The notes under the pieces are model-generated. The model saw only the letters and a list, made by a program, of their open reading frames with translations. It was not told where the DNA came from and ran no database searches. The position numbers and the translations under genes are program-made. From assembly GCA_000004985.1 (NCBI GenBank), contig GG739290.1: DNA of 2,118 bases; one strand, 5' to 3'. Of this stretch, positions 17 through 2,118 are shown piece after piece; position 1 is the first letter of the stretch, and each line of letters starts with the position of its first letter. This stretch comes from Naegleria gruberi (Eukaryota).

Positions 17-1177
17 TCAGAAGTGTATGAATAAATTTCTTGAGGGATTGTTCATACATTTGGAGCTGTCAATTTTAACAATATTATTCTCTTTGTCTTT
101 AGAAATGAACGTGACATGAGATACAATCTTGTACTCATTTTCATCCAATTCAAATAACTTGTTAGAATCATCACCAGTCTTACAGGATGGAAACAATTCC
201 TTAATAGTGATAAGAGGTTTTGTGAGTTGTCTAAGAATTCCAATCCTATAACAAATACATTTCAAATCAATTCTCTCAAAATCTCTGGGATGAATTTCTT
301 GTTCTTTTAGTATCTTACTTGAAATGTAAGGATCTTTCTTGACTAGTTGTCTAAAGTATCGTGGTGCTATATACAGGCGACCTGTTGGAGTTTTATAAAT
401 CAATCCTTTCAAGAAGAGATCCTTTTCTTCTCTTGTCAGTGAAACATTCAATCCACACAATAAACGTGGTAATAATTCGGATTGAACTGATGGGTCGTTG
501 AATGATTCTTGCTTAACAAGATACCCTTTAATTACTTTATCGATATTCTTTTTCAATTCTGGAAATAGAACATCAGACTGATTTTTCCATTCTTGAAATG
601 TCACCTTTGTTAAAAAGGACGCAATTCCTCTCAAAGTAAGGTTCAACACTTCAGGTATTATTAAGGCCTCAAATAGCAAAACTCCCATTCTTCGTATAGT
701 TACATTGTTGGTAATGCTCATCATATTAATCATTGTAGTTGAACATTTAAAATAACTATTACTTAAATATTCCTTTAAAATTGTACCCAATTGTGATGTG
801 CAAAGAGGTGGTAATGTTAATTCTTGATTTCCAAATTCTGTTTCATTAAATCGTATATCAGAGATGTGTTTAAGACCTGATAGAATTGGAATCAAACAAA
901 CTCTACTTAAATTTAAATTGACAATATCAATGTTCACCATATAATTTCCAATGGCATATAAAGGACGTTTCCATGGAGTAAGTGTTGAATCATCCTTAAT
1001 AGTTCCAAACATTTGGTATAGGAATTGAACCTCATCCAGAGAAATGGTCATGAGTAAAATTTCATCGTTGTTAATAAATTGTTCCAATTTTCTTGTAATG
1101 TTTTGCAATGTGAAGAAATTGGTGGTACAATAAAGAGTTTTAAAGTAAGGGTTTAGCAATTCCACTAGATAACTGAC
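17..1177 (-). CDS. Downstream fragment of the same gene, about 386 codons. This is the 382-aa track ORF plus four further in-frame codons (V S Y L) at 1166-1177. The product is an unknown C-terminal region of the NTPase-like protein, and the fragment is not an independent gene.
   Basis: The track ORF 17..1165 begins with GTG, since rc of 1163-1165 'cac' is GTG and not ATG. The frame stays open upstream of it through the target-site duplication and into the element, up to a TGA at 1313-1315. The first in-frame ATG is residue 39 (MTISLDEV). The stop TGA is at 17-19. Confidence 0.65.
   Translation of the reverse strand, partial: VSYLVELLNPYFKTLYCTTNFFTLQNITRKLEQFINNDEILLMTISLDEVQFLYQMFGTIKDDSTLTPWKRPLYAIGNYMVNIDIVNLNLSRVCLIPILSGLKHISDIRFNETEFGNQELTLPPLCTSQLGTILKEYLSNSYFKCSTTMINMMSITNNVTIRRMGVLLFEALIIPEVLNLTLRGIASFLTKVTFQEWKNQSDVLFPELKKNIDKVIKGYLVKQESFNDPSVQSELLPRLLCGLNVSLTREEKDLFLKGLIYKTPTGRLYIAPRYFRQLVKKDPYISSKILKEQEIHPRDFERIDLKCICYRIGILRQLTKPLITIKELFPSCKTGDDSNKLFELDENEYKIVSHVTFISKDKENNIVKIDSSKCMNNPSRNLFIHF
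1031..1060 (-). other. Candidate Walker B motif ILLMTISLDE, of the hhhhDE type, about 115 residues downstream of the P-loop in the reconstructed protein.
   Basis: It lies in the 382-aa ORF at residues 36-45. It is a hydrophobic run followed by D-E. The assignment rests on motif logic alone, with no alignment available. Confidence 0.3.
1169..1177. repeat. Target-site duplication, left copy, ATAACTGAC. It is 9 bp, or 8 bp if the first A matches by chance.
   Basis: It is identical to 1853-1861 and abuts the TIR. On the minus strand both copies encode V-S-Y in the same codon phase. Confidence 0.65.
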
Positions 1178-1189
1178 TAGATCGCGGGA
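1178..1189. repeat. Left terminal inverted repeat, TAGATCGCGGGA. It extends to 14 matches in 15 positions, through 1192, when one mismatch is allowed.
   Basis: I compared it directly with the reverse complement of 1841-1852. It is GC-rich (CGCGGGA) in an AT-rich context. Confidence 0.7.
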
Positions 1190-1494
1190 AGTCTTTGAAA
1201 AAATGGGCCAGAAAAATTTTTTTCCAAGTCCAAAATACCAGCCATTGGATACCAGTTCGACTTTGCCAAAATTTCTTGGTATCTGAAAATTTTTACAAGT
1301 CGGTAATCTTGCTCACAAGCAAAGATAGAACACCAATATTGACTCTATTCCTTCTCTTGAATACTCTGCGAGTAATGAGGTAACATTTCATGCAGGAAAC
1401 CAACACAAATATATTGAACAAGTCTTTTATTGTGAAAATTTGGGAACTCAACAGAATACCAACAATAATCCAATCAAGAACTGATGACCAAACT

Positions 1495-1589
1495 CCAACA
1501 ACAAGAACGGAGCCAATATTGGTAACAGCAACCATTCATGCTTGAGCCTTCCGCAAATAATAATTACTATTATTTCTTGTTGTTGTTGG
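1495..1589. repeat. Internal inverted repeat within the element. CCAACAACAAGAA (1495-1507) pairs with TTCTTGTTGTTG(TTGG) (1574-1589), which includes a (TTG)4 microsatellite at 1577-1588. The arms could form a stem-loop with a loop of about 66 nt.
   Basis: I compared the two arms by reverse complement. They are 12 to 13 bp long, with one extra TTG unit on the right arm. Confidence 0.5.
1513..1522. repeat. Perfect 10-bp palindrome CCAATATTGG near the centre of the element.
   Basis: The sequence equals its own reverse complement. It lies between the two arms of the internal inverted repeat. Confidence 0.6.
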
Positions 1590-1707
1590 TGTATTAGCGT
1601 TAGCCAAACACCATATTGTTGTTCATCAATTCTACTAAAATTAGTACTAATGATGATACTATTCCACGTTATGCAAAATAAAGCCAGTTTTCTCGATGGG
1701 TAAAACT

Positions 1708-1729
1708 ATGTAGTTTCAATGTAGTTTCA
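1708..1729. repeat. Perfect tandem duplication of the 11-mer ATGTAGTTTCA, two adjacent copies.
   Basis: 1708-1718 equals 1719-1729. This is a slippage-type or replication duplication inside the element. Confidence 0.8.
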
Positions 1730-1840
1730 CTGCATTATTATATTTGGCTGATAATATTTTTTTGAATATTTTTTAAAGTTGACACTCAACTTGTCTCAAA
1801 TTTTCTTCCAGTCCAGCGGATCGACGAATTTATATCAACC

Positions 1841-1852
1841 TCCCGCGATCTA
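1841..1852. repeat. Right terminal inverted repeat, TCCCGCGATCTA. It supplies the in-frame TAG that truncates the upstream gene fragment.
   Basis: It is the perfect reverse complement of 1178-1189. Read on the minus strand, positions 1850-1852 (+ strand 'cta') form the stop codon TAG. Confidence 0.7.
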
Positions 1853-2118
1853 ATAACTGACTGGACACCCCATTAATCTTGCTAAAATTCGTAATCCAAA
1901 CATTTTCCCTTCAGTTTCTTGTTTCGAATAACCATAGTTAACCTCATCGCTTGTTAAGGTGTTACCAGTGTCTAAGGAAAGATTACAATGTAATTTTCTA
2001 TATTTATGTTCAGAATCCATGTTCATTTTAAGAACAATGTTTCGAATTTCCTTACAAGCTCTTGACTTTCCACTACCTGTACCATTGGATAGAATTCCAT
2101 ACTCAAAATATCCTTTCT
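1850..2118 (-). CDS. Upstream (N-proximal) fragment of the interrupted gene, partial at its 5' end. The visible translation is KGYFEYGILSNGTGSGKSRACKEIRNIVLKMNMDSEHKYRKLHCNLSLDTGNTLTSDEVNYGYSKQETEGKMFGLRILARLMGCPVSY* and contains a Walker A / P-loop.
   Basis: I translated the reverse complement of 1853-2116 by hand. The frame is open from the window edge, with no start codon inside the window, so the ORF track missed it. It ends at a TAG (1850-1852) contributed by the insertion terminus. The GTGSGKS P-loop is encoded at 2063-2083. Confidence 0.6.
   Translation of the reverse strand, partial: KGYFEYGILSNGTGSGKSRACKEIRNIVLKMNMDSEHKYRKLHCNLSLDTGNTLTSDEVNYGYSKQETEGKMFGLRILARLMGCPVSY
1853..1861. 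repeat. Target-site duplication, right copy, ATAACTGAC.
   Basis: It is identical to 1169-1177 and sits immediately outside the right TIR. Confidence 0.65.
2063..2083 (-). other. Walker A / P-loop motif GTGSGKS, in the context GILSNGTGSGKS.
   Basis: This is the hand translation of the minus strand, with codons acc-tgt-acc-act-tcc-ctt-tga reverse-complemented. It fits the GxxGxGK[ST] / G-TGSGKS type seen in many nucleotide kinases and FtsK/VirB4-like ATPases. Confidence 0.55.

What the first reader, a model, noticed from the sequence alone, without database searches (positions are those of the whole stretch)
1169..1861. A 675-bp TIR element with a 9-bp target-site duplication has inserted into the coding sequence of a large NTPase-like gene, and in-silico excision restores the ORF exactly
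Three independent signals coincide in the sequence. There is a perfect 12-bp terminal inverted repeat (TAGATCGCGGGA at 1178-1189, rc at 1841-1852). There is a perfect 9-bp direct repeat, ATAACTGAC, immediately outside both ends. After removing 1178-1852 plus one 9-mer, the minus-strand frame entering from 2118 runs straight into the 382-aa ORF (..GCPVSY|LVELLNPYF..). A chance 12-bp inverted repeat in 2 kb is not very rare, but adjacent 9-bp duplications and frame-perfect restoration of an ORF of about 471 codons are together hard to explain except by a transposition event. The element has no transposase ORF, so it is non-autonomous. In this genome context it is probably an undescribed MITE-like family, and the insertion may be recent because the TIRs and the duplication are both perfect.
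Basis: seen in the sequence. Interest (0 to 1): 0.8.

Follow-up and report, generated by a model that had tools for sequence, protein, structure and literature searches.

The report
Transposon insertion splitting a Naegleria gene
A 675-bp non-coding "cut-and-paste" transposon has recently inserted into one copy of an ATPase-like gene of the amoeba Naegleria gruberi; a near-identical intact copy in the same genome confirms the insertion, which is a clear but ordinary transposition event.

Summary
The element (1178-1852) has perfect 12-nt terminal inverted repeats and is flanked by a perfect 9-nt direct repeat, ATAACTGAC. Removing the element plus one repeat gives a 471-codon open minus-strand frame.

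The window is a complete 2,118-bp contig of Naegleria gruberi. The same genome encodes an 834-aa protein, NAEGRDRAFT_47006, that is 97% identical to the restored protein. It reads ...GCPVSYLVELL... without interruption, and its single V-S-Y aligns to both copies of the 9-mer. This is an empty site at protein level. Four more distant homologous loci also lack the insert. None of the 11 equivalent excision registers has intron-type boundaries, so this is not a conventional intron.

The element has no detectable coding capacity. The host gene is a divergent AAA+/STAND-type P-loop NTPase.

A 9-bp duplication, together with a published full-length MuDRF (Mutator) element with 9-bp duplications in N. 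gruberi, makes Mutator the leading candidate.

Verdict: a real, recent insertion of a non-autonomous TIR transposon. It is a new member of a known kind and of modest interest.

The parts
1178..1852 (.). 675-bp non-autonomous TIR element (the inserted DNA)
   Evidence: It is bounded by the TIRs and the TSD. It is absent from the intact paralogue or allele P0003 and from four homologous loci. GC is 0.345 against 0.321 in the flanks. No coding signal was found, and there were no Rfam or tRNA hits.
1178..1192 (+). Left terminal inverted repeat (12 nt perfect, 15 nt with one mismatch): TAGATCGCGGGAaGT
   Evidence: (I15)
1838..1852 (-). Right terminal inverted repeat: ACcTCCCGCGATCTA (reverse complement TAGATCGCGGGAgGT)
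   Evidence: (I15)
1169..1177 (.). Target-site duplication, left copy: ATAACTGAC (sense strand GTCAGTTAT = Val-Ser-Tyr)
   Evidence: D14. The tblastn of P0003 begins its downstream HSP exactly here, with VSY.
1853..1861 (.). Target-site duplication, right copy: ATAACTGAC
   Evidence: The tblastn of P0003 ends its upstream HSP exactly here, with the same VSY (residues 316-318).
1214..1232 (+). Subterminal direct repeat, left copy (AAATTTTTTTCCAAGTCCA), 36 nt inside the left end
   Evidence: It matches its partner at 18/19 positions with one gap. That score was reached in 13 of 1,000 randomisations. It is a possible transposase-binding motif, which is an inference.
1798..1815 (+). Subterminal direct repeat, right copy (AAATTTTCTTCCAGTCCA), 37 nt inside the right end
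   Evidence: (D15)
1853..2118 (-). Upstream fragment of the host gene, running off the contig end; equals P0003 residues 232-318. The Walker A motif GTGSGKS is at 2063-2083.
   Evidence: 84/88 identical to P0003
17..1177 (-). Downstream fragment of the host gene; equals P0003 residues 316-694. The Walker B motif ILLMTISLDE is at 1031-1060. The annotated model XP_002668132 (344 aa) starts at the internal Met at 1049-1051.
38..41 (-). 1-nt frameshift relative to P0003: an extra A in TCA-A-GAAATT. P0003's sequence EIYSYTSDTHPCV continues in another frame over 1-37.

Best explanation
Window 1178-1852 is one copy of a non-autonomous class II (cut-and-paste, TIR) DNA transposon. It inserted into the coding sequence of one copy of a Naegleria gruberi AAA+/STAND-like NTPase gene.

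Mechanism (inferred from established knowledge of DDE transposons). A transposase supplied in trans by an autonomous relative binds the 12-15-nt termini, and possibly the subterminal 19-nt repeats. It excises the element and joins its 3' ends to target-DNA cuts staggered by 9 nt. Gap repair then duplicates the 9 nt ATAACTGAC.

Shown here. The insertion splits the reading frame after Val-Ser-Tyr, and the first codon of the element is a stop (TAG). The existing annotation therefore calls only a 344-aa C-terminal fragment.

Timing (inferred). The event is recent. The TIRs and the TSD are perfect, and both halves of the gene remain open over 470 codons.

Superfamily (not shown). The leading candidate is Mutator/MULE, perhaps mobilised by the MuDRF element reported in this genome. 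I put that at about 0.45, conditional on the element being a transposon.
For: - TIR plus TSD anatomy is present, and it is rare by chance (1 in 2,000).
- Exact excision restores a 471-codon frame.
- Empty site: P0003 (NAEGRDRAFT_47006, 834 aa, on a 695-kb scaffold) sits in the same 90% cluster. It reads RLMGCPVSYLVELLNPYFK with VSY once. Its residues 232-318 map to 2116-1853 and residues 316-694 map to 1177-38, so the single VSY aligns to both 9-mers.
- The restored protein is 97% identical to P0003.
- N. lovaniensis and three metagenomic homologous loci are collinear across the site with no insert.
- None of the 11 equivalent 684-nt excision registers has GT-AG, GC-AG or AT-AC ends. A gene model could therefore not have spliced such an element out to give P0003's junction.
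- The element has no coding capacity.
- The element's base composition matches the host genome's.
- Literature: a full-length MuDRF element with 9-bp TSDs is reported in N. gruberi (PMC3164196, Fig. S2 legend). DNA transposons are present, and young TEs are methylated, in N. gruberi (PMC12344493).
Against: - No second copy of the element or its termini was found. All hits to the termini in viral, metagenome and prokaryote collections were single-ended chance matches on GC-rich contigs. These collections do not contain the N. gruberi genome, so the result is uninformative rather than negative.
- The empty site is shown only at protein level. The DNA of the P0003 locus could not be fetched.
- The TIRs are short (12-15 nt), whereas classical MULEs have TIRs of 100 nt or more.
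- The TSD length of 9 nt rests on one insertion with a 10-nt identity, so 8-10 nt is possible.
Confidence: 0.88

Rival explanations
1. It is a transposon of another superfamily, not Mutator. One option is hAT with an 8-bp TSD; hAT termini typically begin TAG or CAG. Others are Merlin (8-9 bp), P, or a superfamily not yet described. The mechanism would be the same (DDE cut-and-paste in trans) but with a different transposase partner.
For: The direct repeat is identical over 10 nt, so one copy cannot fix the TSD length. The element begins with TAG, as many hAT elements do (my own knowledge). The TIRs are only 12-15 nt, which is unlike classical MULEs. Harbinger and Kolobok elements are also reported in N. 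gruberi, although their TSDs (3 bp; TTAA) do not fit.
Against: An 8-bp TSD would require one unpaired extra base at one end of an otherwise perfect TIR (sequence). The hAT terminal consensus YARNG is met at only 4 of 5 positions (TAGAT). The only 9-bp-TSD autonomous element reported in this genome is MuDRF (PMC3164196).
Confidence: 0.45
2. Introner-like element: it is a transposon, but it is removed from the host mRNA as an intron through splice sites at or near its ends, so the gene stays functional. Candidate sites are the donor CCA|GTCAGT inside the upstream TSD copy (window 1861) and the acceptor CCCATTTTTTCAAAG| at window 1193. Splicing there would remove 669 nt and leave five extra residues (TSRDL) in a variable loop.
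For: In-frame GT-AG pairs exist near both ends: 669 nt and 681 nt. Both gene halves remain open. The junction lies in a loop whose length varies between homologues. The inserted length of 684 nt is a multiple of 3.
Against: 76 in-frame GT/GC-AG pairs exist in this AT-rich sequence, so such pairs are expected by chance. No transcript-derived protein with either spliced junction is in the protein collection. The JGI model did not splice the element out; it starts at an internal Met. Naegleria introns are short (median 80 bp in N. lovaniensis, PMC6125883). No paper found links Naegleria to introners. The open frame is explained equally well by a recent insertion.
Confidence: 0.05
3. An ordinary spliceosomal intron of the host gene that happens to have inverted ends and repeated flanks.
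For: The organism is a eukaryote with introns (PMC6125883). Removing 684 nt keeps the frame.
Against: None of the 11 registers giving the conserved junction has canonical intron ends. The intact copy and four homologous loci have no intervening sequence at this site. The length is about 8 times the median Naegleria intron. The combination of a 12-nt TIR and a 9-nt direct repeat is seen in about 1 of 2,000 random windows.
Confidence: 0.01
4. An assembly chimera or chance repeat structure on a tiny, low-coverage contig, with no biological insertion.
For: The window is a whole contig of only 2,118 bp from a Sanger draft. It carries a possible read-end error near position 40.
Against: A chimera would not create a perfect TIR immediately flanked by a perfect 9-nt duplication of exactly the codons (VSY) that occur once in the intact copy. 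The chance estimate is 1 in 2,000.
Confidence: 0.02

Closest known systems
Non-autonomous Mutator-like elements (MULE/MuDR superfamily), including the MuDRF lineage reported in N. gruberi (Cantu et al. 2011, PMC3164196)
   Same: Both make a 9-bp target-site duplication and have terminal inverted repeats. Both depend on a transposase supplied in trans and insert into genes. An autonomous MuDRF element with 9-bp TSDs is reported in the same genome.
   Different: The TIRs here are only 12-15 nt, whereas classical MULEs have 100 nt or more. The termini do not begin with the G-rich motif common in MULEs (my own knowledge). No sequence link to any MuDRF element could be tested.
[quoted passage not shown]
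   Same: The element is short and non-coding, has TIRs and a TSD, and has AT-rich content like its host genome.
   Different: At 675 bp it is at the upper size limit. The defining high copy number is untested. Apart from the 15-nt ends, the two halves are not inverted copies of each other.
Non-autonomous hAT elements (e.g. Ds of maize)
   Same: Both have short TIRs (about 11-15 nt) starting with TAG. Both have subterminal short repeats that could bind a transposase, cause gene disruption, and restore the sequence exactly when the element and one TSD copy are removed.
   Different: hAT elements make 8-bp TSDs. Here 9 bp is the symmetric solution. The YARNG terminal motif is matched at 4 of 5 positions.
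Introner elements (TIR-transposon-derived introns of Micromonas, Aureococcus and other protists; my own knowledge of Huff et al. 2016 and Gozashti et al. 2022)
   Same: Both are TIR elements with a TSD sitting inside a coding exon. A GT donor lies inside the duplicated target site, and the inserted length keeps the frame.
   Different: No canonical splice pair removes the element precisely. There is no transcript evidence and no evidence of many copies in genes.

Membership tests
Class II TIR (cut-and-paste) transposon, non-autonomous copy | Terminal inverted repeats at the exact ends of the inserted DNA | tested here: met
   12 nt perfect, 15 nt at 93%
Class II TIR (cut-and-paste) transposon, non-autonomous copy | Target-site duplication immediately flanking both ends | tested here: met
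   ATAACTGAC on both sides. The combined TIR+TSD structure arose in 1 of 2,000 randomisations.
Class II TIR (cut-and-paste) transposon, non-autonomous copy | An empty site exists: a homologous sequence lacking the element and carrying the target once | tested here: met
   This was shown at protein level only. P0003 reads GCPVSYLVELL with one VSY that aligns to both 9-mers. Four more distant loci are collinear without an insert.
Class II TIR (cut-and-paste) transposon, non-autonomous copy | No transposase gene inside the element | tested here: met
   The longest ORF is 80 aa. There were no Pfam hits and no homologue for any six-frame segment.
Class II TIR (cut-and-paste) transposon, non-autonomous copy | Other copies in the genome, and an autonomous partner with the same termini | not testable with these tools
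   N. gruberi genome DNA is not in any searchable collection. Scans of the viral, metagenome and prokaryote collections gave only chance hits.
MITE | High copy number of near-identical short elements | not testable with these tools
   Same limitation as above. No gene model or ORF call anywhere overlaps another copy, which argues weakly against very high copy number inside annotated genes.
MITE | Small size (usually under about 800 bp) with TIRs and a TSD | tested here: met
   675 bp
Mutator / MULE superfamily | TSD of 9-11 bp | tested here: met
   9 bp is the only length that gives symmetric ends. 8-10 bp is formally possible from one copy.
Mutator / MULE superfamily | Long TIRs (typically 100 nt or more) | tested here: not met
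   There is no inverted similarity beyond 15 nt (the score was reached in 475 of 1,000 randomisations). Short-TIR MULEs exist, so this lowers the likelihood of membership but does not exclude it.
Mutator / MULE superfamily | Mobilised by a MULE-type DDE transposase with matching termini | not testable with these tools
   The only evidence is the literature report of a full-length MuDRF element with 9-bp TSDs in N. gruberi (PMC3164196).
hAT superfamily | 8-bp TSD and the terminal motif YARNG | tested here: inconclusive
   An 8-bp TSD is possible only with one unpaired terminal base. TAGAT matches YARNG at 4 of 5 positions (sequence).
Spliceosomal intron | GT-AG (or GC-AG / AT-AC) boundaries whose removal yields the conserved protein junction | tested here: not met
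   None of the 11 equivalent registers has canonical ends.
Introner element | Spliced from mRNA; many copies acting as introns of unrelated genes | not testable with these tools
   Only candidate cryptic sites were found. No transcript data are available.
AAA+/STAND P-loop NTPase (the host gene) | Walker A and Walker B motifs conserved across homologues; alpha/beta ATPase fold | tested here: met
   The alignment of 17 members conserves GGxGxGK[TS]RA and hhhhLDExQ. Members give weak hits to AAA_22, AAA_16 and nSTAND3. The AF2 model has pLDDT 70.5. Its best Foldseek matches are ORC subunits, NRC4, Avs3 and NSF, with best E = 3.8e-4. No Pfam family reaches its own cut-off.

The most novel reading that the evidence does not exclude
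The element belongs to an active, so far undescribed family of Naegleria transposons that behaves as an 'introner'. On this reading it inserts into coding exons and is removed from the mRNA through a donor created from the duplicated target (GTCAGT) and an acceptor near its own end. This would make N. gruberi (Discoba) a new lineage in which DNA transposons generate introns.
Probability: 0.04. Interest if true: 0.65.

Novelty: new member of a known kind. Interest (0 to 1): 0.25.

Why it matters
Naegleria genomes are reported to be very poor in transposable elements, and most of their repeats are unclassified. A structurally perfect insertion with an intact sister copy in the same genome is direct evidence of recent DNA-transposon activity in N. 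gruberi. It also gives exact termini (TAGATCGCGGGA) and a target-duplication length that can be used to find the family and its autonomous partner.

It also corrects an annotation. XP_002668132 (344 aa) is the 3' remnant of a gene disrupted by a transposon, not a complete protein.

Beyond that it is a textbook event. It does not open a new question.

Tried and rejected
1. My first chance test compared the flanking segments out of register. It was replaced.
2. I searched 5.8 billion proteins with the concatenated six-frame open segments of the element, to catch gene models overlapping other copies. There were no hits.
4. The TIR 15-mer in viral contigs gave 13 hits, and a degenerate 20-mer in metagenomes gave 37 hits. 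All were single-ended, lay on contigs of 0.33-0.66 GC, and showed no further similarity, so they are chance matches.
5. Long exact pieces of the element found nothing in viral contigs or in prokaryotic genomes. The phage collection also had nothing.
6. Rfam and tRNA scans were empty, apart from one sub-threshold chance hit.
7. Fetching N. gruberi DNA through P0001 and P0003 failed because neither is on record.
P0003 was used instead.
9. The conventional-intron reading was rejected.
10. A solo LTR was considered and rejected from the sequence: the ends are TA..TA rather than TG..CA, and a 9-bp TSD is atypical for LTR elements.
11. Literature searches for Naegleria with MITE, introner, Mutator or the TIR string found no description of this element. 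The Cell 2010 genome paper is not held.
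Full report
**1. The observation**

- TAGATCGCGGGA at 1178-1189 is the perfect reverse complement of 1841-1852. The pairing extends to 15 nt with one mismatch.
- ATAACTGAC lies immediately outside both ends, at 1169-1177 and 1853-1861.
- The identity between the flanks actually runs 10 nt (ATAACTGACT). 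From this one copy the duplication could formally be 8, 9 or 10 nt. Only 9 nt leaves both ends of the element symmetric.
- Removing 1178-1861 (684 nt) joins the minus-strand frame entering at 2118 to the 382-codon ORF. The result is 471 open codons with the junction GCPVSY|LVELLNPYF.

I then tested for chance.
- In 2,000 Markov-1 randomisations of the window, a TIR+TSD structure of combined length >=21 nt occurred once.
- An earlier test of mine was wrong and is discarded.
- With this base composition, 470 codons staying open has a probability of about 1e-17.

**2. Where the window comes from**

A protein search identified the downstream ORF as 'predicted protein [Naegleria gruberi]' (P0001 = XP_002668132, 344 aa). 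Its longest contig is 2,118 bp, so the window is a complete small contig of the N. gruberi draft genome. The annotated protein starts at an internal Met. It is therefore the 3' remnant of the interrupted gene.

**3. The decisive evidence: an intact copy**

P0001's 90%-identity cluster contains a second N. gruberi protein, P0003 (NAEGRDRAFT_47006). It is 834 aa long and sits on a 695,587-bp scaffold.
- P0003 reads ...GLRILARLMGCPVSYLVELLNPYFKTLYY... without interruption, and V-S-Y occurs once.
- In tblastn against the window, residues 232-318 align to 2116-1853 and end exactly at VSY. Residues 316-694 align to 1177-38 and begin with the same VSY.
- The single VSY of the intact copy therefore corresponds to both copies of the 9-mer. 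This is the expected relation between an empty and a filled site.

The evidence is at protein level, because the DNA of that locus could not be fetched. However, a gene model could not have produced this junction by splicing out an identical element. None of the 11 equivalent 684-nt excision registers has GT-AG, GC-AG or AT-AC ends.

More distant homologous loci are also collinear across the site, with no insert of several hundred bp. These are N. lovaniensis L001 and the metagenomic contigs L052, L053 and L054.

**4. Relation between the two N. gruberi copies**

The restored window protein differs from P0003 by 13 substitutions and one 1-residue indel in 464 aligned positions. All differences lie in the first 212 residues, and the last 252 residues are identical. 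This mosaic pattern fits a divergent haplotype, or a recent paralogue homogenised by gene conversion. Protein data alone cannot decide between them.

The window also has one extra A (TCA-A-GAAATT, about 38-41) relative to P0003, which shifts the frame 40 nt from the contig end. It could be a read-end error or a second lesion.

**5. The element itself**

- It is 675 bp long. Its GC content is 0.345, against 0.321 in the flanks.
- It has no ORF above 80 aa, no Pfam match, and no homologue among 5.8 billion proteins for any six-frame open segment.
- It has no Rfam or tRNA match.
- Beyond the 15-nt ends the two arms show no inverted similarity.
- A 19-nt direct repeat, AAATTTT(T/C)TTCC(A)AGTCCA, lies about 37 nt inside each end, at 1214-1232 and 1798-1815. 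Its score was reached in 13 of 1,000 randomisations. It may be a subterminal binding motif, which is an inference.
- An 11-nt unit is tandemly duplicated at 1708-1729.

**6. The host gene**

No Pfam family reaches its cut-off. A full HMMER scan of 1.8 billion representatives found a small family of 24 proteins.
- The alignment conserves a Walker A motif (GGxGxGK[TS]RA), a Walker B motif (hhhhLDExQ), and a C-terminal D...(Q/H)YK motif that resembles a PD-(D/E)xK nuclease.
- Several members hit AAA_22, AAA_16, ATPase_2 and nSTAND3 weakly.
- An AlphaFold model (pLDDT 70.5) matches ORC subunits, the NRC4 resistosome, Avs3 and NSF best (best E = 3.8e-4).

'NTPase-like' is therefore correct. More precisely, the protein is a divergent AAA+/STAND-type ATPase.

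**7. The intron and introner rivals**

A conventional intron is excluded for three reasons.
- The boundary dinucleotides are not canonical.
- The insert is absent from the intact copy and from the other homologues.
- The length is about 8 times the median Naegleria intron of 80 bp (PMC6125883).

Cryptic in-frame GT-AG pairs do exist near the ends.
- One pairs the donor CCA|GTCAGT inside the upstream TSD with an acceptor at 1193. It would remove 669 nt and leave 5 extra residues.
- The other pairs a donor at 1857 with an acceptor at 1177. It would remove 681 nt and leave 1 extra residue.
- However, 76 such in-frame pairs exist in this AT-rich sequence.
- No spliced product is in the protein collection.

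I keep an introner-like reading only as a low-probability novel case.

**8. Copy number, partner and superfamily (not testable here)**

The N. gruberi genome is not in any collection that can be searched by DNA. Scans of viral, metagenome and prokaryote collections gave only chance single-end hits or nothing.

The literature reports the following.
- Naegleria genomes are TE-poor. One preprint gives 0.28% for N. gruberi (10.64898/2026.06.24.734286). Another paper gives 5.1% total repeats (PMC6125883).
- Most N. gruberi repeats are unclassified, and young TEs are methylated (PMC12344493).
- Kolobok and Harbinger elements occur in Naegleria. Their target duplications (TTAA and 3 bp) do not fit this element.
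- A full-length MuDRF element (Mutator superfamily) flanked by 9-bp TSDs occurs in N. gruberi (PMC3164196).

This makes Mutator the leading candidate for the mobilising transposase, at roughly 0.45. The short TIRs argue against a classical MULE. hAT, Merlin or an undescribed superfamily remain open.

**9. Verdict**

This is a real and recent insertion of a non-autonomous TIR DNA transposon into one copy of an AAA+/STAND-like NTPase gene. An intact sister copy in the same genome confirms it. The 'undescribed multi-copy MITE family' part remains untested. The finding is a new member of a known kind and of modest interest.

Noticed in passing
window 38-41 (and 1-37): There is one extra A relative to the intact copy P0003 (TCA-A-GAAATT). 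It shifts the frame so that the ORF ends at 17-19, while P0003's sequence EIYSYTSDTHPCV continues in another frame to the contig end. This is either a Sanger read-end error or a second disabling lesion.
   Followed up: partly
window 17-2118 versus P0003: The similarity is mosaic. All 14 differences from P0003 fall in the first 212 restored residues, and the last 252 residues are identical. This suggests gene conversion or a recombinant haplotype.
   Followed up: partly
L001:3780-3790; L052:2245-2260 (also L053); L054: about 1706: Homologues of the host gene in N. lovaniensis and in three metagenomic contigs each carry a +1 frame change within about 30 codons of the insertion site, but at different positions. 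N. lovaniensis has a 1-nt slip in an A5 run. L052 and L053 share a 2-nt deletion, found in two independent assemblies. The family seems prone to pseudogenisation, or to being split into two ORFs, in this linker.
   Followed up: partly
P0003 residues about 700-815 (beyond the window); alignment A1 columns about 990-1100: The host family has a conserved C-terminal motif, D(G/A)hF ... hhhIQYK ... YhTN, that resembles a PD-(D/E)xK nuclease. An ATPase-plus-nuclease architecture is reminiscent of conflict or defence proteins. The family has only 24 representatives in 1.8 billion proteins, from Naegleria and from metagenomic contigs of 36-38% GC.
   Followed up: partly
window 1178-1312, minus strand: The downstream gene frame stays open for 45 codons into the element (ARLPTCKNF...SKTSRDL|VSYLVELL), but this extension has no in-frame Met. 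The annotated protein XP_002668132 instead starts at the Met inside the Walker B motif, so it is an annotation artefact of the insertion.
   Followed up: yes
window 1708-1729: There is a perfect tandem duplication of an 11-nt unit (ATGTAGTTTCA x2) inside the element.
   Followed up: no
window 1182-1189 and 1841-1848: The TIR core is CpG-rich (TCGCGGGA) in a genome of 33% GC. N. gruberi is reported to methylate young TEs (PMC12344493). Whether the termini are methylation targets is unknown.
   Followed up: no
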